From Pristiophorus japonicus (lineage: Eukaryota): a stretch of 64,000 nucleotides of DNA. The number at the start of each line of letters is the position of its first letter. Within the stretch, counting starts at the first letter, position 1. Where the stretch lies: the NCBI RefSeq assembly GCF_044704955.1, contig NC_091993.1:620001-684000 (forward strand), written 5' to 3'. The notes beneath the pieces were generated by a model. That model was given only the letters and a program-made list of their open reading frames with translations. It was not told the origin of the DNA and made no database searches. Made by a program: the position numbers and the translations under genes. This document shows, piece after piece, positions 18,955 through 60,201 of this stretch.

Positions 18955-20119
18955 GTACTCTACAGGAGCCTCCTCCCATTCTAACTACCTCTTCGCACCC
19001 TGCCCCCTTCTCTCCCACCCCCCCCTCGTGTATGCATCAAGTCTCCCCTTAAATACATCAGTGCCACCTGCTCCAACCACTCCACGTGACAGCGAGTTCC
19101 ACATTCTCATCACTCTCTGTGTCACTTGTTCCAACTGGCATAGGTGTTGCTTCACTCATGTTTGTGCAGGATGGGTGAAGATGCTTCATGATAACACGGT
19201 GTTGCACCTTCTCAGCACAGCCGCTCCAGTATTCAGCCGTCAGGGAAGGGGGGTATTCGCAAAGATGGTGCAGTTTGGATGATTTTGAGTGGCACCTTTC
19301 TGTATTTGGTTGGATGTGGAGGTTGGGAAAGATTATTTCTAAACTTTCCTCCGTACTTGCTCTGCTATCTGCTGGCCTGTACCTTGCTCTCAGTACAGGT
19401 ACCTTCTTCGCACTTTCTGTGAAGATTGATGACATGGAGATAAAGGCAACATTTAAAGCTCGAGGTGTAGTTCTTAAACATATGAGGGCCGAAATTGCCC
19501 TCCGCCCCAAATGGGCAGATAATTAATGTTACATGAATATTCTCCGCCCCATGGATTCCCCATAGAGGGAAATTTTGATTTGTTGGGGCGGTATTTGGGG
19601 GTGGAAATGCGTCGGGTGCGGGGAGGGGGGAGGGGGGGGAGGCGGGCTGTGTCACTGACGCTTGGCAATGTCTCCCCCTTTCAGTTAAAGGGGAGGGCCG
19701 CTGAGAGCTCTGCAGCCACTTTAGTGGCACTCAGTGGACCACCAGGGTGGGCTTTGGCAGGGCGTGCCCGGCCGAACCTGTGGCCGCCATTGTTGGGCTG
19801 ACTTTAGAGTCGGCCGACAATTAAAACAAAATGACGGCCTTGGCAGAGCGCCCTCCCCTTTAAGGGCGGACACGCTACACAGCTACAGGCAGCTTCCCGC
19901 CAGGAAAGGCTGTCGGGGCACCGGCCGGCAGCTGCTCCCTTCCCGCGGGGCAATTTCCCTCACGGGGCAGAAAAGGGGTCAGCCAGCGCCGGGTGCGAAG
20001 GGGTCGGCACGTGTCCGATGGGGCGCGCCAGAGACCCATCTCCTCCACCCCCTGGCCTAGGGGCAATTTGGGTCGGGTCAGACCATCTGCCTGCTTCCAG
20101 TCGGAAAGACCTTACTGTC

Positions 20120-20491
20120 GGGAGCTCGGAGCAGCGCGAGTCCGGGGTCGGCGAGAGGCCTATAAAGGCCAGCGGGAGCTCGGAGCAGTCAGTCGAGGAG
20201 GCGGGAGCTCGGAGCAGCGCGAGTCCGGGGTCGGCGAGAGGCCTATAAAGGCCAGCGGGAGCTCGGAGCAGTCAGTCGAGGAGGCGGGAGCTCGGAGCAG
20301 CGCGAGTCCGGGGTCGGCGAGAGGCCTATAAAGGCCAGCGGGAGCTCGGAGCAGTCAGTCGAGGAGGCGGGAGCTCGGAGCAGCGCGAGTCCGGGGTCGG
20401 CGAGAGGCCTATAAAGGCCAGCGGGAGCTCGGAGCAGTCAGTCGAGGAGGCGGGAGCTCGGAGCAGCGCGAGTCCGGGGTCGGCGAGAGGC
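20120..20491 (+). repeat. 83-bp tandem monomers (about 4.5 copies) in the CR1 5' UTR
   Basis: Units start at 20120, 20203, 20286, 20369 and 20452; each full unit contains ggcctataaaggcc. Confidence 0.95.
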
Positions 20492-20531
20492 GTGCCGGTG
20501 CAGCTACAGGGAGAAGGCAAAAAAACAAAGG

Positions 20532-20573
20532 TGACGTCACAGCCTAGGGGGTAAGTGATTGGCTGGTGATTGG
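20532..20573 (+). promoter_or_regulatory. CRE (TGACGTCA) plus two inverted CCAAT boxes; putative internal Pol II promoter
   Basis: TGACGTCA at 20532; GTGATTGG at 20555 and 20566; function inferred. Confidence 0.5.
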
Positions 20574-20658
20574 TGAGTAGTTTTTCTTTTTCTTCTTATA
20601 TTGGTCAGTAACTTTTAACATTGTTATTACCAGTTTAAGTGTATCTAAGGGTTAAGAC

Positions 20659-21606
20659 ATGGCAGGAGAGCTCGGTCGGGTGTTATGCTCCTCCTGTACC
20701 ATGTGGGAACTCAGGGACACTTCCGGTGTCCCTGACGACTACGTGTGCGGGAAGTGTATCCGCCTCCAGCTCCTGACGGTCCGCGTTACGGAATTGGAGC
20801 TGAGGGTGGATTCACTCTGGAGCATCCACGATGCTGAGAATGACGTGAGTATCACGTGTAGTGAGTTGGTCTTACCGCAGGGAAAGGGTCCACAGCCAGA
20901 TAGGGAATGGAAGACCAGCAGGAAGAGTAGAGCAAGGAAGGTAGTGCAGGGGTCCCCTGCGGTCATCCCCCTGCAAAACAGATACACCGCTTTGGGTACT
21001 GTTGAGGGGAATGACTCATCAGGGGAGGGCAGCAGCAGCCAAGTTCATGGCACCGTGGCTGGCTCTGCTGCACAGGAGGGCAAGAAAAAGAGTGGGAGAG
21101 CGATAGTGATAGGGGATTCAATTGTGAGGGGAATAGATAGGCGTTTCTGCGGCCGCAACCGAGACTCCAGGATGGTATGTTGCCTCCCTGGTGCAAGGGT
21201 CAAGGATGTCTCGGAGCGGGTGCAGGACATTCTGAAATGGGAGGGAGAACAGCCAGTTGTCGTGGTGCACATTGGTACCAACGACATAGGCAAAAAAAGG
21301 GATGAGGTCCTACGAAACGAATTTAAGGAGCTAGGAGCTAAATTAAAAAGTAGGACCTCAAAAGTAGTAATCTCGGGATTGCTACCAGTGCCACGTGATA
21401 GTCAGAGTAGGAATCGCAGGATAGCGCAGATGAATACGTGGCTTGAGCAGTGGTGCAGCAGGGAGGGATTCAAATTCCTGGGGCATTGGGACCGGTTCTG
21501 GGGGAGGTGGGACCAGTACAAACCGGACGGTCTGCACCTGGGCAGGACTGGAACCAATGTCCTCGGGGGAGTGTTTGCTAGTGCTGTTGGGGAGGATTTA
21601 AACTAA
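20659..21606 (+). CDS. CR1 ORF1p: zinc finger/leucine zipper plus SGNH esterase
   Basis: CSSC...CGKC; LELRVDSL; IGDSIVR, PGA, HIGTND and DGLH blocks. Confidence 0.93.
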   Translation: MAGELGRVLCSSCTMWELRDTSGVPDDYVCGKCIRLQLLTVRVTELELRVDSLWSIHDAENDVSITCSELVLPQGKGPQPDREWKTSRKSRARKVVQGSPAVIPLQNRYTALGTVEGNDSSGEGSSSQVHGTVAGSAAQEGKKKSGRAIVIGDSIVRGIDRRFCGRNRDSRMVCCLPGARVKDVSERVQDILKWEGEQPVVVVHIGTNDIGKKRDEVLRNEFKELGAKLKSRTSKVVISGLLPVPRDSQSRNRRIAQMNTWLEQWCSREGFKFLGHWDRFWGRWDQYKPDGLHLGRTGTNVLGGVFASAVGEDLN

Positions 21607-24590
21607 TATGGCAGGGGGATGGGAACCAATGCAGGGAGACAGAGGGAAACAAAAAGGAGCCAAAAGCAAAAGACAGAAAGGAGAGGAGGAAAAGTGTAGG
21701 GCAGAGAAACCCAAGGCAAAGAACAAAAAGGGCCACTGTACAGCAAAATTCTAAAAGGACAAAGGGTGTTAATAAAACAAGCCTGAAGGCTTTGTGTCTT
21801 AATGCAAGGAGTATCCGCAATAAGGTGGATGAATTAATTGTGCAAATAGATGTTAACAAATATGATGTGATTGGGATTACGGAGACGTGGCTCCAGGATG
21901 ATCAGGGCTGGGAACTCAACATTCAGGGGTATTCAACATTCAGGAAGGATAGAATAAAAGGAAAAGGAGGTGGGGTAGCATTGCTGGTTAAAGAGGAGAT
22001 TAATGCAATAGTTAGGAAAGACATTAGCTTGGATGATGTGGAATCTATATGGGTAGAGCTGCAGAACACCAAAGGGCAAAAAACGTTAGTAGGAGTTGTG
22101 TACAGACCTCCAAACAGTAATAGGGATGTTGGGGAGGGCATCAAACAGGAAATTAGGGGTGCATGCAATAAAGGTGTAGCAGTTATAATGGGTGACTTTA
22201 ATATGCACATAGATTGGGCTAGCCAAACTGGAAGCAATACGGTGGAGGAGGATTTCCTGGAGTGCATAAGGGATGGTTTTCTAGACCAATATGTTGAGGA
22301 ACCAACTAGGGGGGAGGCCATCTTAGACTGGGTGTTGTGTAATGAGAGAGGATTAATTAGCAATCTCATTGTGCGAGGCCCCTTGGGGAAGAGTGACCAT
22401 AATATGGTGGAATTCTGCATTAGGATGGAGAATGAAACAGTAAATTCAGAGACCATGGTCCAGAACTTAAAGAAGGGTAACTTTGAAGGTATGAGGCGAG
22501 AATTGGCTAGGATAGATTGGCGAATGATACTTAGGGGGTTGACTGTGGATGGGCAATGGCAGACATTTAGAGACCGCATGGATGAAGTACAACAATTGTA
22601 CATTCCTGTCTGGCGTAAAAATAAAAAGGGGAAGGTGGCTCAACCGTGGCTATCTAGGGAAATCAGGGATAGTATTAAAGCCAAGGAAGTGGCATACAAA
22701 TTGGCCAGAAATAGCAGCGAACCTGGGGACTGGGAGAAATTTAGAACTCAGCAGAGGAGGACAAAGGGTTTGATTAGGACAGGGAAAATGGAGTACGAGA
22801 AGAAGCTTGCAGGGAACATTAAGGCGGATTGCAAAAGTTTCTATAGGTATGTAAAGAGAAAAAGGTTGGTGAAGACAAACGTAGGTCCCCTGCAGTCAGA
22901 ATCAGGGGAAGTCATAACGGGGAACAAAGAAATGGCGGATCAATTGAACAAGTACTTTGGTTCGGTATTCACTAAGGAGGATACAAACAACCTTCCGGAT
23001 ATAAAAGGGGTCAGAGGGTCTAGTAAGGAAGAGGAACTGAGGGAAATCTTTATTAGTCGGGAAATTGTGTTGGGGAAATTGATGGGATTGAAGGCAGATA
23101 AATCCCCAGGGCCTGATGGCCTGCATCCTAGAGTACTTAAGGAGGTGGCCTTGGAAATAGCGGATGCATTGACAGTCATTTTCCAACATTCCATTGACTC
23201 TGGATCAGTTCCTATGGAGTGGAGGGTAGCCAATGTAACCCCACTTTTTAAAAAAGGAGGGAGAGAGAAAACAGGGAATTATAGACCGGTCAGCCTGACC
23301 TCAGTAGTGGGTAAAATGATGGAATCAATTATTAAGGATGTCATAGCAGTGCATCTGGAAAATGGTGACATGATAGGTCCAAGTCAGCATGGATTTGTGA
23401 AAGGGAAATCATGCTTGACAAATCTTCTGGAATTTTTTGAGGATGTTTCCAGTAAAGTGGACAAAGGAGAACCAGTTGATGTGGTATATTTGGACTTTCA
23501 GAAGGCTTTCGACAAGGTCCCACACAAGAGATTAATGTGCAAAGTTAAAGCACATGGGATTGGGGGTAGTGTGCTGACGTGGATTGAGAACTGGTTGTCA
23601 GACAGGAAGCAAAGAGTAGGAGTAAACGGGTACTTTTCAGAATGGCAGGCAGTGACTAGTGGAGTGCCGCAAGGTTCTGTGCTGGGGCCCCAGCTGTTTA
23701 CATTGTACATTAATGATTTAGACGAGGGGATTAAATGCAGTATCTCCAAATTTGCGGATGATACTAAGTTGGGTGGCAGTGTGAGCTGCGAGGAGGATGC
23801 TATTAGGCTGCAGAGTGACTTGGATAGGTTAGGTGAGTGGGCAAATGCATGGCAGATGAAGTATAATGTGGATAAATGTGAGGTTATCCACTTTGGTGGT
23901 AAAAACAGAGAGACAGACTATTATCTGAATGGTGACAGATTAGGAAAAGGGAAGGTGCAACGAGACCTGGGTGTCATGGTACATCAGTCATTGAAGGTTG
24001 GCATGCAGGTACAGCAGGCGGTTAAGAAAGCAAATGGCATGTTGGCCTTCATAGCGAGGGGATTTGAATACAGGGGCAGGGAGGTGTTGCTACAGTTGTA
24101 CAGGGCCTTGGTGAGGCCACACCTGGAGTATTGTGTACAGTTTTGGTCTCCTAACTTGAGGAAGGACATTCTTGCTATTGAGGGAGTGCAGCGAAGGTTC
24201 ACCAGACTGATTCCCGGGATGGCGGGACTGACCTATCAAGAAAGATTGGATCAATTGGGCTTGTATTCACTGGAGTTCAGAAGAATGAGAGGGGACCTCA
24301 TAGAAACGTTTAAAATTCTGACGGGTTTAGACAGGTTAGATGCAGAAAGAATGTTCCCAATGTTGGGGAAGTCCAGAACCAGGGGTCACAGTCTGAGGAT
24401 AAGGGGTAAGCCATTTAGGACCGAGATGAGGAGAAACTTCTTCACCCAGAGAGTGGTGAACCTGTGGAATTCTCTACCACAGAAAGTAGTTGAGGCCAAT
24501 TCACTAAATATATTCAAAAGGGAGTTAGATGAAGTCCTTACTACTCGGGGGATCAAGGGTTATGGCGAGAAAGCAGGAAGGGGGTACTGA
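21582..24590 (+). CDS. CR1 ORF2p: AP endonuclease plus reverse transcriptase (frame open from 21582; first ATG at 22188)
   Basis: CLNARS, ITETW, YRPP, GDFN, SDH; YRPVSLTS, QHGF, DFQKAFD, GVPQGSVLGP, FADD. Confidence 0.95.
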   Translation, partial: CCWGGFKLIWQGDGNQCRETEGNKKEPKAKDRKERRKSVGQRNPRQRTKRATVQQNSKRTKGVNKTSLKALCLNARSIRNKVDELIVQIDVNKYDVIGITETWLQDDQGWELNIQGYSTFRKDRIKGKGGGVALLVKEEINAIVRKDISLDDVESIWVELQNTKGQKTLVGVVYRPPNSNRDVGEGIKQEIRGACNKGVAVIMGDFNMHIDWASQTGSNTVEEDFLECIRDGFLDQYVEEPTRGEAILDWVLCNERGLISNLIVRGPLGKSDHNMVEFCIRMENETVNSETMVQNLKKGNFEGMRRELARIDWRMILRGLTVDGQWQTFRDRMDEVQQLYIPVWRKNKKGKVAQPWLSREIRDSIKAKEVAYKLARNSSEPGDWEKFRTQQRRTKGLIRTGKMEYEKKLAGNIKADCKSFYRYVKRKRLVKTNVGPLQSESGEVITGNKEMADQLNKYFGSVFTKEDTNNLPDIKGVRGSSKEEELREIFISREIVLGKLMGLKADKSPGPDGLHPRVLKEVALEIADALTVIFQHSIDSGSVPMEWRVANVTPLFKKGGREKTGNYRPVSLTSVVGKMMESIIKDVIAVHLENGDMIGPSQHGFVKGKSCLTNLLEFFEDVSSKVDKGEPVDVVYLDFQKAFDKVPHKRLMCKVKAHGIGGSVLTWIENWLSDRKQRVGVNGYFSEWQAVTSGVPQGSVLGPQLFTLYINDLDEGIKCSISKFADDTKLGGSVSCEEDAIRLQSDLDRLGEWANAWQMKYNVDKCEVIHFGGKNRETDYYLNGDRLGKGKVQRDLGVMVHQSLKVGMQVQQAVKKANGMLAFIARGFEYRGREVLLQLYRALVRPHLEYCVQFWSPNLRKDILAIEGVQRRFTRLIPGMAGLTYQERLDQLGLYSLEFRRMRGDLIETFKILTGLDRLDAERMFPMLGKSRTRGHSLRIRGKPFRTEMRRNFFTQRVVNLWNSLPQKVVEANSLNIFKRELDEVLTTRGIKGYGEKAGRGY

Positions 24591-25107
24591 AGTTTCATGT
24601 TCAGCCATGAACTCATTGAATGGCGGTGCAGGCTAGAAGGGCTGAATGGCCTGCTCCTGCACCTATTTTCTATGTTTCTATGTTTCTATGTTTCTATGTC
24701 CCGTTAGCAACTCTTAGAGGCGGTAATGAACCTTTAACGAGGGGGCAATTTCGGCCTCTTGGTCTTACGTTATACTTGTAGAATGTTTTTGAACCTTGAA
24801 GGAAGTGGTTGATTTTGAGGTTCTGGAGAAAGTCCAGGAGTCCTGGAGTTTGTTTGGAAAGTCATGATCTTGTCCTTCAGGTGCCAGCTTCTGAACCTGA
24901 TTGCTACAATCAGTTCCACGAGTTCTGTGTTGTATCACGGGCCCACGTGAGACCTTCACAGGTCCCCAGTGACGGTGGGGAATCTGGAGGCTGAGTGACC
25001 CAGAAGTGTTTAGGCACCAGACCGCCAGCAACAACCTAACGGAAGACGTGAGCACCGTATTCAGGCTGATAGTGGTCGTCCAATCACAGGGAGCTTCTGG
25101 ACACTTT

Positions 25108-25682: not shown

Positions 25683-25978
25683 TTTGAATCTCCTCTTGGG
25701 TCTGAACAATAGATTGATTGGGAATTTCAATTTTATCCCTGGCCATGTATTTTGGGAGAGGCCATGTTCAAGGCTAAATTCTTTGCCTAATAGGATTTTG
25801 CCTGAAGTTAACGACACAATCTTCCCCAGAATTTGGAATTTTGCTGATGATTGAAAGGCATTCATCATCTGTTTCTTGCCCTTAGGATGTTAGCCATGTA
25901 TTGTGGATAAAGTAATCTAAATCAAAGGTGTCTGTTAACGTGTCTATCTTCTGAAGTGTTTGAAAGGTCAAGGTCTCA

Positions 25979-27142
25979 TTTGACAAGGTGCCACATAAAA
26001 GGTTACTGCACAAGATAAAAGTTCACGGGATTGGGGGTAATATATTAACATGGATAGAGGATTGGCTAACTAACAGAAAACAGAGAATCAGGATAAATGG
26101 GTTATTTTCTGGTTGGCAAACAGTGACTAGTGGGTGCCACAGGGATCGTTGCTGGGTCCTCAACTATTTACAATCTATATTAATGACTTGGATGAAGAGA
26201 CCGAGTGTACTGTAGCCAAGTTTGCTGATGATACAAAGATGGATGGGAAAGCAAGTTGTGAGGAGGACAAAAAATCTGCAAAGGGATATAGACAGGCTAA
26301 GTGAGTGGCAAAAATTTGGCAGATGGAGTATAATGTGAGAAAAATGTGACATTATCCAATTTGGCAGAAAAAGTAGAAAAGCAAATTATAATTTAAATGG
26401 AGAAAAATTGCAAAGTGCTGCAGTACAGAGGGACCTGGGGGTCCTTGTGCATGAAACACAAAGTTAGTATGCAGGCACAGCAAGTAATCAGGAAGGCAAA
26501 TGGAATGTTGGCCTTTATTGAAAGGGGATAGAGTATAAAAGCAGAGAAGTCCTGCTGCAACTATACAGGTATTGGTGAGGCCACACCTGGAATACTGCGT
26601 ACAGTTTTGGTCTCCGTATTTAAGGAAGGATACACTTGCATTGGAGGCTGTTCAGAGAAGGTTCACTTGGTTGATTCTGGAGATGAGGGAGTTGACTTAT
26701 GAAAATAGGTTGAGTAGGTTGGGCCTATACACATTGGAGTTCAGAAGAATGAGAGATGATTTTATCGAAACATATAAGATAATGAGGGGGCTCGACAAGG
26801 TGGATGCAGAGAGGATATTTCCACTCATAGGGGAAACTAAAACTAGGGGACATAATTTCAGAATAAGGGGCCACCCATTTAAAACTGATATGAGGAGGAA
26901 TTTCTTCTCTCAGAGGGTTGTAAATCTATGGAATTCTCTGCCCCAGAGAGCTGTGGAAGCTGGGTCATTGAATATATTTAAGGCGGAGATAGACAGATTT
27001 TTGAGCAATAAAGGAGTAAAGGGTTATGGGGAGCGGCAGGGAAGTGAAGCTGAGTCCATAATCGGATCAGCCATGATCTTATTAAATGGTGGAGCAGGAT
27101 CGAGGGGCCGAATGGCCGACTCCTGCTCCTATTTCTTATGTT
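25979..27142 (+). mobile_element. 5'-truncated, frameshifted CR1 (RT region to 3' end)
   Basis: FDKVPHKRLL..., KFADDTK, RPHLEYCVQFW; 3' tail. Confidence 0.92.
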
Positions 27143-33938: not shown

Positions 33939-34461
33939 ACATAGAAACATAGAAAATAGGTGCAGGAGTAGGCCATTCGGCCCTTCGAGCCTGCACCACC
34001 ATTCAATATGATCATGGCTGATCATGCAACTTCAGTACCCCATTCCTGCTTTCTCTCCAAAGCCCTTGATCCCTTTAGCCGTAAGGGCCACATCTAACTC
34101 CCTTTTGAATATATCTAACGAACTGGTCTCAACAACTTTCTGCGGTAGAGAATTCCACAGGTTCACAATTCTCTGAGTAAAGAAGTTTCTCCTCATCTCG
34201 GTCCTAAATGGCTTACACCTTATCCTAAGACTGTGACCCCTGGTTCTAGACATCCCCAACATCGGGAACATTCTTCCTGCATCTAACCTGTCCAATCCTG
34301 TCAGAATTTTATATGTTTCTATGAGATCCCCTCTCATTCTTCTAAATTCCAGTGATTATAAGCCTAGTCGATCCAGTCTTTCTTCATATGTCAGTCCTGC
34401 CATCCCGGGAATCAGTCTGGTGAACCTTCGCTGCACTCCCTCAATAGCAAGAACGTCCTTA
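33939..34461 (-). mobile_element. CR1 3' end, same subfamily as the full-length copy
   Basis: MRGDLIETYKILTGLDRLDAGRMFPML; catagaaa tail. Confidence 0.92.
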
Positions 34462-34994
34462 CTGTATGTACAAAGTCCATTTTGAAAATAAGCACAGCTG
34501 CAAATACCTGATGCAAGTCCCTTCGGTTTCCCTAAGGGCTTCACTGTATTTTAAGTATATGTTTACATACTGTTACAAATATTGTATGCTCAAAAAACCT
34601 GTGACATCTGATATTCAGTGTCTGAGCAAAAAACTTTATTGATTTGAGGAGTAAATTATAAATAAGACCACCAGATCCTCTAACAGCACAATGGCCGGAT
34701 TCACTCACTGTCACTGTGGCTGAACAAGTAACCTGAGCTTCCCAGAGGACCAGTGCCTGCACAGACTCTAGCTCAGCGAGGAAATTGTTGTTGAGGTCTG
34801 TCATTAGGGAGGCAGAGTCTACCAGTTTCAGACAAAGCCATTGAGGCCCCAACTTCTATCCCACAGGATGCTCCCAGTGAACCATAAGTTCACAAGACAG
34901 TTGCAGATGAGGAAGATCTTTTGCCCCATCTCAGCTCATCTGCAACCTGCAGTTCTCCCAGCACAGCCCTCCAACTGCTTCTTGAATGAATCCG

Positions 34995-38155: not shown

Positions 38156-39631
38156 CCAATGTCTGCCTGTCGTGTTAAATTTTCCTTTACTAGTTTGAAC
38201 CCGTGTCCCCTTGTCCAACTCACGCAATGTACTTTAGCTCTGAGTTGTAAACAAGTGCTGCAAGAATCCCCGGCTTAAGGTAGACGGACAAACCGGTTGG
38301 AAAGACAGACGCTTAGATCTATATCAAAATGTCACTGCGGGATAATGGACATATCTCCAGATTAAAGAACGTTAAGCAAACAGAAAACTAAGATCCATCA
38401 GTGTCGTGTTTCAAGTACTGCACAGTTTTTGCGTTCCTTTATCATTAAATGCTTATTTTGGCACAAAGAGGATTCATTACTGCTTAACTTATTGAATTGG
38501 GTATTTGGATTTTGCTCGTGACCTTTTATCAAGTAAAGAGTGAAAATCTGACTTTATTGCGTAATATTTATTTGTGATGCGTATTATGGCTTTGGGGAAA
38601 CTCTCAAAACGAAACTTCATGTCAAAAAATGTGCAAGTGGTTCATCCAGTCAGATAGCGCAAGGTTAGTTGTGTAAAGTCCTGGAAATGTGTCAAGATAC
38701 AACATGAAGCTGTGCTAACTGGGTCACAGAATCCCTGGCACAGAGCGTTTCGGTCGTTTCTTTAAGTGACACCACGTGTGTGACACTGGCATTATCTCAG
38801 TAAAAGCCGGGTTGAATTTAATTACACCGACACATCGCCAAAGTCACAATTACCCTCAGCAGCATTGCCAGCAGGAATTTCAGGCTTGCAAACCCGAAAT
38901 TACTGCCATCTAATCCAGGAGCGCGGAAAATGGAGGCATCCATGACAGACGACATCCTTGGAAAGGTACAAAAAGATAGTTATTCTGAAAATGACGGCCT
39001 GCCCATATGTCTGAAAACCATTGTTGGTGCCTTCTGGATTTGGGATCTACCTACAGGAGGACTTGAAAGCCTGCAATTCCTGATAGCTGTGCTTTTTAAC
39101 CAGTGCTTTCTTTCAACAGCCCTCCTTAACTTATAACTTATCCCAGGAATGATGCCAACAGTGTGCCTCCTCTTGAACTTTCTTTGAACCGGGAGAATCT
39201 GTCTTTTGTTTTTCCTCTTTTTTTCCCAAACCATCTCTTTCAAATAAATAAAAAAAGCACTTCCATTTAACGTGGAACAGGGGGAGGCCATTCAGCCCAT
39301 GAGCCTGTTCCGCTATTCAATTGGAGTGCATAGCTGATCTTTATCTTAACCCCATTTTCCTGCCTTGGTTGTGTAACACTTAATACTCTCGCCTCTCAAT
39401 TTCATTCTTGAAATTTTCAATTGCCCCCCCAGCCTCAACTGCTTATTGGGAGAGAGAGAGCTCCTGATTTTCACTAGCCATTGTGTAAAGACAGCTTCCT
39501 GACATCACCCCTGAATGGTCTAGCACTAATCTCTAGGTTATGACCCCTTATTCTGGACTCCCCACAAGAGGAATGTTTCTCTCTATTAACTCCTTTAATC
39601 ACCTTTAACAATCACCCATTAATCTTCTATA

Positions 39632-41478
39632 AACATAAGAATTCGGAACAGGAGTAGGCCATTTAGCCCCTCGAGCCTGCTCCGCCATTCAACAAGATCA
39701 TGGCTGATCTGGCCGTGGACTCAGCTCCACTTACCCGCCCGCTCCCCATAACCCTTAATTCCCTTATTGGTTAAAAATCTATCTATCTGTGACTTGAATA
39801 CATTCAATGAGCTAGCCTCAACTGCTTCCTTGGGCAGAGAATTCCACAGATTCACAACCCTCTGGGAGAAGAAATTCCTTCTCAACTCGGTTTTAAATTG
39901 GCTCCCCCGTATTTTGAGGTTGTGCCCCCTAGTTCTAGTCTCCCCGACCAGTGGAAACAACCTCTCTGCCTCTATCTTGTCTATCCCTTTCATTATTTTA
40001 AATGTTTCTATAAGATCACCCCTCATCCTTCTGAACTCCAACAAGTAAAGACCCAGTCTACTCAATCTATCATCAGAAGGTAACCCCCTCATCTCCGGAA
40101 TCAGCCGAGTGAATCGTCTCTGTACCCCCTCCAAAGCTAGTATATCCTTCCTTAAGTAAGGTGACCAAAACTGCACGCAGTACTCCAGGTGCGGCCTCAC
40201 CAATACCCTGTACAGTTGCAGCAGGACCTCCCTGCTTTTGTACTCCATCCCTCTCGCAATGAAGGCCAACATTCCATTCGCCTTCCTGATTACCTGCTGC
40301 ACCTGCAAACTAACTTTGCAAACTAACTTTTTGGGATTCATGCACAAGGACCCCCAGGTCCCTCTGCACCACAGCATGTTGTAATTTCTCCCCCTTCAAA
40401 TAATATTCCCTTTTACTGTTTTTTTTCCCAAGGTGGATGACCTCACACTTTCCGACATTGTATTCCATCTGCCAAGCCTTAGCCCATTCGCTTAACCTAT
40501 CTAAATCTCTTTGCAGCCTCTCTGTGTCCTCTACACAACCCGCTTTCCCACTAATCTTAGTGTCATCTGCAAATTTTGTTACACTACACTCTGTCCCCTC
40601 TTCCAGGTCATCTATGTATATTGTAAACAGTTGTGGTCCCAGCACTGATCCCTGTGGCACACTACTAACCACCGATTTCCAACCCGAAAAGGACCCATTT
40701 ATCCCGACTCTCTGCTTTCTGTTAGCCAGCCAATTCTCGATCCATGCTAATACATTTCCTCTGACTCCACGTATCTCTATCTTCTGCAATAACCTTTTGT
40801 GTGGCACCTTATCGAATGCCTTTTGGAAATCTAAATACACCACATCCATCGGTACACCTCTATCCACCATGCTCGTTATATCCTCAAAGAACTCCAGTAA
40901 ATTAGTTGAACATGATTTCCCCTTCATGAATCCATGTTGCGTCTGCTTGATTGCACTATTCCTATCTAGATGTCCCGCTATTTCTTCCTTAATGATAGCT
41001 TCAAGCATTTTCCCCACTACAGATGTTAAACTAACCGGCCTATAGTTACCTGCCTTTTGCCTGCCCCCTTTTTTAAACAGAGGCGTTACATTAGCTGCTT
41101 TCCAATCCGCTGGTATATCCCCAGAGTCCAGAGAATTTTGGTAGATTATAACGAATGCATCTGCTATAACTTCCGCCATCTCTTTTAATACCCTGGGATG
41201 CATTTCATCAGGACATGGGGACCTGTCTACCTTGAGTCCCATTAGCCTGTCCAGCACTACCCCCCTAGTGATAGTGATTGTCTCAAGGTCCTCCCTTCCC
41301 ACATTCCTGTGACCAGCAATTTTTGGCATGGTTTTTGTGTCTTCCACTGTGAAAACCGAAGCAAAATAATTGTTTAAGGTCTCAGCCATTTCCACATTTC
41401 CCATTATTAAATCCTCCTGCTCATCTTCTAAGGGACCAACATTTACTTTAGTCACTCTTTTCCGTTTTATATATCGGT
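39632..41478 (-). mobile_element. 5'-truncated CR1 (RT domain to 3' end) nested in an older CR1
   Basis: RT motifs in ORFs 40310-41491 and 39721-40377; frameshift from a tandem duplication of tgcaaactaactt near 40304-40330; older CR1 at about 39280-39630 and 42155-42335. Confidence 0.93.
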
Positions 41479-41511
41479 AAAAGGAATACAAGTTTTAAGG
41501 GGGGAAACTGT

Positions 41512-58165: not shown

Positions 58166-60201
58166 GGATGAACGTCAACAATTGTACATCCCTGTCTGGC
58201 GTAAAAATAAAATGGGGAAGGTGGCTCAACCATGGCTAACAAGGGAAATTAAGAATAGTGTTAACTCCAAGGAAGAGGCATATAAATTGGCCAAAAAAAG
58301 CAGCAAACCTGAGGACTGGGAAAAATTTAGAATTCAGCAGAGGAGGACAAAGGGTTTATTTAGGAGGGAGGAAATAGAATATGAGAGTAAGCTTGCAGGG
58401 AGCATAAAAACTGACTGCAAAAGCTTCTACAGATACGTGAAGGAAAAAAGATTAGTGAAGACAAATGTGGGTTCCTTGCAGTCAGAATCAGGTGAATTTA
58501 TAATGGGGAACAAAGAAATGGCAGACCAATTGAACAAATACTTTGGTTCTGCCTTCATTAAGGAAGACACAAATAACCTTCTGAAAATACTAGGGGACCG
58601 AGGGTCGAGCGAGAAGGAGGAACTGAAGGAAATCCTTATTAGTCAGCAAATTGTGTTAGGAAAATTGATGGGATTGAAGGCTGATAAATCCCCAGGTGCC
58701 TGATAGTCTGCATCCCAGAATATTTCAGGAAGTGGCCCTAGAAATAATGGATGCATTGGTGGTCATTTTCTAACATTCTATAGACCCTGGATCAGTTCCT
58801 ATGGTCTGGAGGGTAGCTAATGTAACCCCACTTTTTTAAAAAGGAGGGAAAGAGAAAACAGGGAATTATAGACCGGTCAGCCTGACATCGATGGTGGGGA
58901 AAATGCTGGAATCAATTATTAAAGATGTAATAGCAGCGCATTTGGAAAGCAGTGACAGGATCGGTCCAAGTCAGCATGGATTTATGAAAGGGAAATCATG
59001 CTTGACAAATCTTCTCGAATTCTTTGAGGATGTAACTAGTAGAGTGGACAAGGGAGAACCAGTGGATGTGGTGTATTTAGACTTTCAAAAGGCTTTTGAC
59101 AAGGTCTCACACAAGAGATCAGTGTGCAAAATTAAAGTACATGGTATTGGGGGTAATATACTGACATAGATAGAGAACTGATTGGCAGACAGGAAGCAAA
59201 GAGTCGGGATAAACGGGTCCTTTTCAGAATGGCAGGCAGTAACTAGTGGGGTACCGCAAGGTTCAGTGCTGGGACCCCAGCTATTTACAATATACATTAA
59301 TGATTTAGACGAAGGAATTGAATTTAATACCTCCAAGTTTGCAGATGACACTAAGCTGGGTGGCGGTGTGAACTGTGAGGAGGATGCTAAGAGGCTGCAG
59401 GGTGACTTGAACAGGTTAGGTGAGTGGGCAAATGCATGGCAGATGCGGTATAATGTAGATAAATGTGAGGTTATCCACTTTGGTGGTAAAAACAGGAAGG
59501 CAGGTTATTATCTGAATGGTGACAGATTACTAAAAGGGGAGGTGCAACGAGACGTGGGTGTCATGGTACATCAGTCATTGAAGGTTGGCATGCAGCCACA
59601 GCAGGCGGTGAAGAAGGCAAATGGCATGTTGGCCTTCATAGCGAGAGGATTTGAGTATAGGAGCAGGGAGGTCATACTGCAGTTGTACAGGGCCTTGGTG
59701 AGACCACACTTTGAATATTGTGTATAGTTTTGATCTCCTAATCTGAGGAAGGACATTCTTGCTATTGAGGGAGTGCAGCGAAGGTTCACCAGACTGATTC
59801 CCGGGATGGCAGGACTGACATATGAAGAAAAACTGGATCGACTGGGCTTATATTCAATGGAATTTAGAAGAATGAGAGGGGATCTCATAGAAACATATAA
59901 AATTCTGACGGGATTGGACAGGTTAGATGCAGGAAGAATGTTGCCGATGTTGGGGAAGTCCAGAACTAGGGATTAGCCATTTAGGACCGAGATGAGGAGA
60001 AACTTCTTCACTCAGAGTTGTGAACCTGTGGAATTCTCTACCACAGAAAGTTGTTGAGGCCAGTTCGTTAGATATATTCAAAAGGGTGTTAGATATGGCC
60101 CTTATGGCTAAAGGGATCAAGGGGTATGGAGAGAAAGCAGGAAAGGGCTACTGAGGTGCATGATCAACCATGGCCTACTCCTGCACCTATTTTCTATGTT
60201 T
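58166..60201 (+). mobile_element. 5'-truncated decayed CR1, same subfamily as the full-length copy
   Basis: Collinear with ORF2 from about 22582; multiple stops and frameshifts; ttctatgttt tail. Confidence 0.93.

What the first reader, a model, noticed from the sequence alone, without database searches (positions are those of the whole stretch)
21582..21650. U-UUA-AAC slippery heptamer plus G-quadruplex-like motif joining CR1 ORF1 to an ATG-less ORF2 start
Seen: ORF1 ends gaT TTA AAC TAA (heptamer 21597-21603, in X XXY YYZ phase). ORF2 is the -1 frame, open from 21582. Its first ATG (22188, MGDFN) lies deep inside the endonuclease, after the CLNARS and ITETW motifs. Ten nt downstream is GGGGG-at-GGG-aaccaatgca-GGG-agacaga-GGG (21614-21646). 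Known: UUUAAAC is the canonical coronavirus -1 frameshift site, and RNA G4s can stimulate -1 shifting in reporters. LINE ORF2 expression is usually attributed to reinitiation. Inference: programmed -1 frameshifting gives an esterase-APE-RT fusion with a basic linker.
Basis: partly seen in the sequence, partly recalled or inferred. Interest (0 to 1): 0.75.

Follow-up and report, generated by a model that had tools for sequence, protein, structure and literature searches.

The report
Conserved frameshift signal in CR1 retrotransposons
An intact shark CR1 jumping gene ends its first gene on a seven-letter 'slippery' site that is kept across vertebrate CR1 families, which suggests that its copying enzyme is made when the ribosome slips back one base, as in retroviruses, and not by the restart used by other LINEs.

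Summary
A full-length, intact CR1 LINE has T TTA AAC (21597-21603) in X XXY YYZ phase directly before the ORF1 stop. ORF2 is the -1 frame, and its first ATG lies after 13 of 22 invariant endonuclease residues. The signal is conserved: 42 of 46 esterase ORF1s of the CR1 clade end in Leu-Asn-stop. The heptamer plus stop marks 18 ORF1 ends in published consensus rows (sharks to crocodilians) and a 34%-identical locus; synonymous alternatives were not seen there. The main variant in the best-matching run, G_UUA_AAC, is a known viral shift site. Best reading: programmed -1 frameshifting gives a 1310-aa fusion (0.7; not measured). The four-tract G-quadruplex is not conserved; only a short G motif about 10 nt downstream is. 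Real rival: stop-start reinitiation, since some families have UAAUG (3 of 18 rows; 84% in one run). Ten library searches found no paper proposing frameshifting for CR1, but the 1997-2003 primary CR1 papers were not readable. The scan noted a similar reading on other DNA before (e1-7814081, e1-7350016).

The parts
20119..20491 (+). 5' UTR array, 4.5 identical 83-bp units, each with a TATAAA
   Evidence: sequence
20492..20658 (+). rest of the 5' UTR; no ATG in 20100-20658; donor-like GT[AG]AG at 20551 and 20573
20659..21606 (+). ORF1, 315 aa: Cys-rich N-terminus plus SGNH/GDSL esterase, ending Leu-Asn-stop
   Evidence: (PF13472, E 4e-14)
20964..20974 (+). 11-nt exact complement of 21611-21621 inside ORF1; possible long-range partner, unproven
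   Evidence: pair probability 0.96-0.98 in a fold of 20900-21700; absent at the matching site of L001
21597..21603 (+). slippery heptamer U_UUA_AAC
21604..21608 (+). ORF1 stop UAA, overlapping AUA in the ORF2 frame (UAAUA; UAAUG in some relatives)
21614..21623 (+). conserved G motif (G tracts 1 and 2), 10 nt after the heptamer; candidate stimulator
21634..21646 (+). G tracts 3 and 4 of the proposed quadruplex; not conserved
21603..21794 (+). 64-codon purine-rich basic linker in the ORF2 frame (20 K+R, no ATG)
21582..24590 (+). ORF2 frame: apurinic-type endonuclease plus reverse transcriptase; first ATG at 22188
24663..24699 (+). 8-bp tandem 3' tail, 4.8 copies

Best explanation
CR1 ORF2 is made by programmed -1 ribosomal frameshifting. 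SHOWN: the anatomy, the frame relation and the conservation. INFERRED: ribosomes start at the ORF1 ATG (20659). Most stop at UAA 21604 and release a 35-kDa esterase ORF1p. A minority, with tRNA-Leu on UUA and tRNA-Asn on AAC, slip back one base onto UUU/AAA and read on. They give a 1310-aa, 148-kDa ORF1-linker-endonuclease-RT fusion with the junction ...GEDLN-LIWQGDGN. SPECULATIVE: the pause comes from the adjacent stop and a short G-rich linear motif about 10 nt downstream (protein-bound or base-paired), not from a pseudoknot or a three-tier quadruplex, so the efficiency may be only a few per cent.
For: (1) Protein ends: 47 of 64 ORF1 homologues reaching the C-terminus end in LN. In a tree built without the last 14 columns, 42 of 46 members of the clade holding this element's closest relative end in LN, and 0 of 7 in the clade holding the catfish and cyprinid proteins. 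Named LN-enders include rays, a chimaera, a sturgeon entry, a lizard and a swallow. (2) The residue before LN takes 10 identities in 52 non-redundant sequences but is never E, Q, K, M or W, the residues without a T-ending codon (0 of 52; background 15%; P 2e-4 if rows were independent). (3) DNA: L001 (34% ORF1 identity) has the heptamer, TAG, a -1 frame open into the endonuclease and no Met before its NARS motif. In PMC13343379 Suppl. Table 2, 17 of 23 TTTAAACTA hits lie at ORF1 ends (16 CR1 rows, 1 row labelled Crack), plus 1 with TGA. None of 26 hits to ten alternative-motif terms was at an ORF1 end (5, 21). With an upstream esterase motif as anchor, 4 of 5 rows have heptamer plus stop. (4): nearby third-codon positions vary widely, but no variant is listed at 21598-21606. 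The one common heptamer change, T21597G, gives G_UUA_AAC, which fits the G_UU(A) exception named for equine arteritis virus in PMC5009743. (5) Four database proteins read ...FKL... across the ORF1 end, two of them on into the NARS motif (P0038, P0267; P0061, P0156). (6) 13 of 22 invariant endonuclease columns lie before the first Met, including the positions aligned to the first Asn and the Glu-Thr motif of LINE-1 endonuclease. (7) Distant esterase ORF1s end QGN or SKN, compatible with G_GGA_AAC and A_AAA_AAC (9 of 10 GN-enders have Q before).
Against: Nothing was measured. No strong 3' structure exists (MFE -7.8 against shuffled -4.7 +/- 2.3), Rfam has no relevant match, and L001 is almost unstructured (-2.5). 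The non-canonical G_UUA_AAC holds 65% of contig depth in run X1 and the one contig of X13, so the strict XXX rule fails in the best-matching run. UAAUG with an in-frame AUG occurs in 3 of 18 consensus rows and at 84% (X16), 11% (X14) and 0.25% (X1) of depth. Three of the database ORF2s have internal Met in the linker (P0264, P0266, P0270). 53 of 93 variant rows were hidden. Consensus rows were found mostly by searching for the motif, only the first 400 letters of each row were visible, and the rows are gappy, so their frame could not be checked. Sequences are related, so counts are not independent. No DNA was obtained for the GN/KN enders. One anchor-found row (EubMac_CR1-1) lacks one A and the stop. 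A search of longer proteins found no clean in-frame full-length CR1 fusion among 6 hits (weak).
Confidence: 0.7

Rival explanations
1. Termination-reinitiation. Ribosomes stop at the ORF1 stop and restart in the -1 frame on the overlapping codon (AUG in UAAUG families, AUA here, any codon elsewhere), giving a separate ORF2p of about 995 aa, as for SART1 (UAAUG) and LINE-1 (AUG-independent). The heptamer would be a restart signal or a relic. It may also run alongside frameshifting in UAAUG families.
For: UAAUG in 3 of 18 consensus rows and at 84% depth in X16; this element has UAAUA. SART1 coupling at UAAUG is cited in PMC2699510. PMC5009743 describes AUG-independent initiation for mammalian LINE ORF2. 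A UGGGA pentamer lies 75-96 nt before the heptamer or stop in the window (21508) and L001 (1051); its role as a calicivirus restart motif is recalled.
Against: The codon after the stop is free: 11 of 18 rows have TAG and 1 TGA, which cannot form UAAUG, and T21607A at 38% depth in X14 removes both AUA and AUG. Reinitiation does not predict fixed synonymous positions in exactly the seven slippery bases, nor swaps to other slippery-compatible endings. UGGGA is a Trp codon plus GA in a conserved motif.
Confidence: 0.18
2. Frameshifting occurs, and the stimulator is an RNA G-quadruplex of the four tracts at 21614-21646.
For: The motif is there, 10 nt downstream; G4Hunter 1.33. PMC5009743 says G4s stimulate frameshifting in synthetic constructs and that natural use was unknown but anticipated in 2016.
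Against: 0 of 17 assessable consensus rows and not L001 show four G3 tracts with loops of 12 nt or less (read by eye). Depth in X14 and X16 collapses after 21624. The G4 fold gains only 0.4 kcal/mol. A two-tier G4 from tracts 1 and 2 is not excluded.
Confidence: 0.08
3. ORF2 is made from a spliced or internally started RNA, or from transcripts in which RNA polymerase adds a base at TTTAAA.
For: Donor-like GT[AG]AG sites exist at 20551, 20573, 20845, 20861 and 21124.
Against: No YAG in 21540-21800 has more than 9 pyrimidines in the 18 nt before it, and the linker is 76% purine. No AUG lies in the 5' UTR or the linker. None of the 15 listed joints is in X16 (17 hidden; X16 is only guessed to be RNA). 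Runs of three are short for polymerase slippage (established knowledge).
Confidence: 0.06
4. The constraint is on the protein (a C-terminal Leu-Asn of the esterase), and the DNA motif is a by-product.
For: Leu and Asn are invariant in alignment A1.
Against: It does not explain fixed TTA and AAC codons and a T before them (0.014 per family by codon use), and it leaves ORF2 without a start. A clade of related esterases ends otherwise.
Confidence: 0.04

Closest known systems
Vertebrate CR1 LINEs with esterase ORF1 (type IV; PMC4120745, PMC13343379, PMC3905857, passages read)
   Same: Esterase ORF1, APE + RT ORF2, 8-bp tandem tail; about 4.6 kb.
   Different: Term searches of these three texts for 'frameshift' gave 0 hits; the passages seen treat ORF1p and ORF2p as separate proteins.
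Heptamer-type -1 frameshifting of retroviruses and nidoviruses (PMC5009743, passages read)
   Same: U_UUA_AAC is listed among the most shifty heptamers; G_UU(A) is the equine arteritis virus exception; a structural ORF is joined to a polymerase ORF.
   Different: No pseudoknot or strong hairpin 5-9 nt downstream; the host is an APE-type LINE; activity not measured.
Protein-stimulated or linear-motif frameshifting of arteriviruses and cardioviruses (PMC5009743)
   Same: Longer spacer (10 nt here; 11-14 nt there) and a short unstructured downstream motif.
   Different: The motif is G-rich here; no stimulating protein is identified.
SART1 UAAUG coupling (cited in PMC2699510) and LINE-1 ORF2 reinitiation (described in PMC5009743)
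   Same: Bicistronic LINE RNA; ORF2 in the -1 frame overlapping the stop in UAAUG families.
   Different: No AUG here; most CR1 rows seen cannot form UAAUG; a slippery heptamer is conserved.
Penelope-like elements with an ORF1 separated by a frameshift and pseudoknot (PMC8557442, Fig. 1 legend); Dictyostelium TRE5-A with overlapping ORFs (PMC5633606)
   Same: Non-LTR-type retroelements with a frame break between ORF1 and the RT.
   Different: Other clades; the TRE5-A review does not mention frameshifting.

Membership tests
CR1 LINE with esterase ORF1 | ORF1 with SGNH esterase | tested here: met
CR1 LINE with esterase ORF1 | ORF2 with APE endonuclease and RT | tested here: met
CR1 LINE with esterase ORF1 | 3' end of short tandem repeats, no poly(A) | tested here: met
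CR1 LINE with esterase ORF1 | RT groups with the CR1 clade | not tested
   No RT tree built; assignment rests on ORF1 relatives and on visible likeness to rows labelled CR1 in PMC13343379
Canonical -1 programmed frameshift signal | X XXY YYZ heptamer in phase, -1 frame open | tested here: met
Canonical -1 programmed frameshift signal | Heptamer conserved at synonymous positions | tested here: met
   the first base is G in a major subfamily of run X1
Canonical -1 programmed frameshift signal | Stable stem-loop or pseudoknot 5-9 nt downstream | tested here: not met
   (ViennaRNA does not model pseudoknots, but the 3' sequence has almost no pyrimidines to pair with)
Canonical -1 programmed frameshift signal | Measured heptamer-dependent transframe product | not testable with these tools
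   needs reporter, proteomics or ribosome profiling
G-quadruplex-stimulated frameshift | Four G3 tracts conserved after the shift site | tested here: not met
UAAUG termination-reinitiation (SART1 type) | AUG overlapping the upstream stop | tested here: not met
   window has UAAUA; met in some relatives
UAAUG termination-reinitiation (SART1 type) | Downstream product is separate and depends on termination at the junction | not testable with these tools
   needs reporter

The most novel reading that the evidence does not exclude
Esterase-type CR1 LINEs across jawed vertebrates, and more distant esterase-bearing relatives that use other slippery heptamers, make their RT only as a Gag-Pol-like ORF1-ORF2 fusion. 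The -1 frameshift is driven by the adjacent stop and an unstructured G motif, with no pseudoknot, and has been kept since before sharks and bony vertebrates split.
Probability: 0.45. Interest if true: 0.8.

Novelty: new variant of a known kind. Interest (0 to 1): 0.66.

Why it matters
CR1 is the main LINE of birds, crocodilians, turtles and snakes (PMC4316615 abstract) and fills this shark window. How its ORF2 is made without a usable AUG was not addressed in any paper I could read. A frameshift would put CR1 apart from LINE-1 and SART1. It would give the RT an attached esterase and a self-association domain, which offers a way to load it into ORF1p particles at a set ratio. It would also mean that gene models starting ORF2 at an internal Met lack much of the endonuclease, and it would add a natural vertebrate -1 signal without a classical RNA stimulator. 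A cassette of under 200 nt tests it.

Tried and rejected
No whole genome is held. The window has no second CR1 copy reaching the junction. Viral-contig scans found no relatives. The genome-contig scan gave 2 weak bacterial esterase loci, the metagenome scan 1 useful locus of 5, and plasmid and phage tblastn nothing. No RNA holder was listed among the runs. A single-sequence PDB search was blank; the profile worked. Supplements of PMC4316615 (3 hits, the 2 shown inside ORF2; one file not searched), PMC2734521 and PMC8665684 gave no junction. PMC7528939 is not held. Long-range duplex 20964-20974 with 21611-21621: -28.9 kcal/mol, reached by 2 of 40 G-matched controls. It is absent at the matching site of L001. 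In related rows the C run has a local G-rich partner about 30 nt away, so I keep it only as a lead. The second in-phase heptamer G_GGA_AAC at 21644 was rejected as incidental: it lies in the poorly conserved linker. Near-cognate CUG 21783 and UUG 21792 just before the endonuclease are not kept in relatives as far as seen (T21773A, A21806G and neighbours vary; L001 differs) and were not pursued.
Full report
What is there. The finding lies in a full-length, intact LINE at about 20119-24700. It has an 83-bp 5' array, ORF1 at 20659-21606 (315 aa, SGNH esterase), an ORF2 frame at 21582-24590 (APE and RT) and an 8-bp tandem tail. The closest named ORF1 is a Pristiophorus japonicus entry at 97%. ORF1 ends gaT TTA AAC TAA, ORF2 is the -1 frame, and its first ATG is at 22188. 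Thirteen of 22 invariant endonuclease columns lie before that Met, and a profile aligns this part with the N-terminal motifs of LINE-1 endonuclease. A start at 22188 would therefore give a crippled enzyme (inference). Other CR1 pieces in the window are 5'-truncated and lack the junction.

Protein-level conservation. Of 120 listed ORF1 homologues, 64 align to the C-terminus, and 47 of these end in Leu-Asn at the expected place. A wider profile search added distant members. I trimmed the last 14 columns so that the ending could not steer the profile. Of 263 proteins, 152 terminate at the expected distance, and 98 remain after removing near-duplicates: 52 end in LN, 10 in GN, 2 in KN, 34 otherwise. 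The residue before LN has 10 identities but is never one of the five that lack a T-ending codon (0 of 52, background 15%). In a FastTree of 96 esterase domains, 42 of 46 members of the clade around this element end in LN. None of 7 does in the well-supported clade holding the catfish and cyprinid proteins. LN, GN, KN, EN, SN and FF-x endings are mixed in unnamed distant clades. Named LN-enders include rays, a chimaera, a sturgeon entry, Zootoca and Hirundo. Four database proteins read FKL across the ORF1 end, the -1 reading of TTT AAA CTN, and two run on into the endonuclease.

DNA-level conservation. L001, with 34% ORF1 identity, has the heptamer, TAG, a six-G run 10 nt after the heptamer, an open -1 frame and no Met before the first endonuclease motif. 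I searched Supplementary Table 2 of PMC13343379; only the first 400 letters of each row were visible, and I read the rows by eye. Of 23 TTTAAACTA hits, 17 are ORF1 ends, and 1 of 3 TTTAAACTGA hits is. The row codes point to sharks, rays, a chimaera, coelacanth, bowfin, a frog, a lizard and crocodilians (codes expanded from my own knowledge). The base before the heptamer varies and the stop varies (11 TAG, 6 TAA, 1 TGA). None of 26 hits to ten alternative terms lies at an ORF1 end. Anchoring instead on an upstream esterase motif gave 5 rows, 4 with heptamer plus stop and one low-confidence row without. These counts are not an unbiased census.

Contigs of four runs laid on 21430-21860. Third-codon positions upstream vary at up to 90% of depth, and no variant is listed at 21598-21606 (40 rows shown, 53 hidden; depth is not copy number). 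Two results cut against the simple model. First, T21597G holds 65% of depth in X1 and the single contig of X13 (0.08% in X14, none in X16). This gives G_UUA_AAC, which breaks the XXX rule but matches the G_UU(A) exception named for equine arteritis virus in PMC5009743. Second, A21608G creates UAAUG with the AUG in the ORF2 frame at 84% in X16, 11% in X14 and 0.25% in X1, and 3 of 18 consensus rows show it too. Against a general role for that codon, T21607A (38% in X14) removes it, and TAG or TGA families cannot form it.

The downstream motif. A run of four or more G starts 6-13 nt after the heptamer in 13 of 18 rows, in L001 and here, most often at 9-10 nt. Four G3 tracts with short loops appear in 0 of 17 assessable rows, and depth in X14 and X16 falls steeply after 21624. 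The local fold is weak and Rfam has nothing relevant. So the quadruplex as drawn is an accident of this subfamily, while tracts 1 and 2 are conserved. They also encode Gly-x-Gly, so a peptide constraint is not excluded; the G at a third position in several families argues for an RNA-level one. PMC5009743 gives spacers of 11-14 nt for arterivirus and cardiovirus frameshifting and notes linear stimulators, which is the nearest pattern. An 11-nt complement in ORF1 (20964-20974) pairs with the motif in a fold of this element, but it is not exceptional against controls and not general.

Mechanism. I put programmed -1 frameshifting at 0.7, restart after the stop at 0.18, altered RNA at 0.06 and protein-only constraint at 0.04; the four-tract G4 as stimulator gets 0.08 within the first. 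What decides it is that selection holds exactly the seven slippery bases, including synonymous ones, that the tolerated changes stay compatible with known shift sites, and that the would-be start codon is free. The predicted fusion is 1310 aa and 148 kDa with a 64-residue basic linker.

What is known. Ten full-text searches returned no paper that proposes frameshifting for CR1; two searches listed only 30 of 633 and 20 of 2651 papers. I saw passages of PMC5009743 (300,000 of 449,034 characters held; 'CR1' 0 hits), PMC11835228 (300,000 of 609,807 held), PMC3905857, PMC2699510, PMC8557442, PMC2734521, PMC4120745, PMC4255032, PMC5633606 and PMC5408684. For PMC13343379 I saw passages, section 15 and supplement searches. 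For PMC4316615 I saw the listing, the abstract start and a supplement search. For PMC8665684 I ran term searches with no hit. I could not read Haas 1997 (title seen in a reference list), Kapitonov and Jurka 2003, Kajikawa 1997 or Poulter 1999. I recall that the turtle CR1 and fugu Maui papers describe overlapping ORFs and may have suggested frameshifting, so the bare idea may be old; the conservation and the test are what appear new. The supplement of the bioRxiv version of the 2026 paper was not open. The scan's own notes hold similar readings for CR1 and a Penelope-like element in another cartilaginous fish (e1-7814081) and for another LINE with G_GAA_AAC-stop (e1-7350016). I saw them after stating my reading; they are unchecked and add no support.

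Verdict. An ordinary CR1 element that carries a deeply conserved, probably functional -1 frameshift signal: a new variant of a known kind, interest 0.66.

Noticed in passing
window 20119-20658: 5' UTR with 4.5 identical 83-bp TATAAA-bearing units, then TGACGTCA (CRE-like, recalled), two inverted CCAAT boxes and two splice-donor-like sites; a similar layout is visible in shark-coded consensus rows.
   Followed up: no
window 20962-21013: Possible hairpin inside ORF1 between a C run and a G run about 30 nt apart, better paired in ray-, whale-shark- and catshark-coded rows. Its C arm could pair instead with the junction G motif, which would make a switch.
   Followed up: partly
proteins P0166, P0168, P0174, P0176, P0178, P0182, P0183, P0219, P0222, P0233, P0189, P0252, P0171, P0188, P0216, P0249: Distant unnamed esterase ORF1s end in QGN, SGN, SKN or FF-x, compatible with other slippery heptamers; their DNA could not be fetched.
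   Followed up: partly
window 21597 (run X1): A major subfamily carries G_UUA_AAC, matching protein P0002, which ends GEELN; a natural pair for comparing shift rates.
   Followed up: partly
window 21644-21650: A second in-phase canonical heptamer, G_GGA_AAC, in the ORF2 frame of the linker; not conserved.
   Followed up: partly
window 25976-27142, 33939-34463, 39628-41485, 58166-60172: 5'-truncated CR1 copies of other subfamilies, 70-89% identical at the DNA level.
   Followed up: no
protein P0007: A CR1 ORF1 (62% identical) is filed in NCBI under Pseudomonas aeruginosa, most likely contamination.
   Followed up: no
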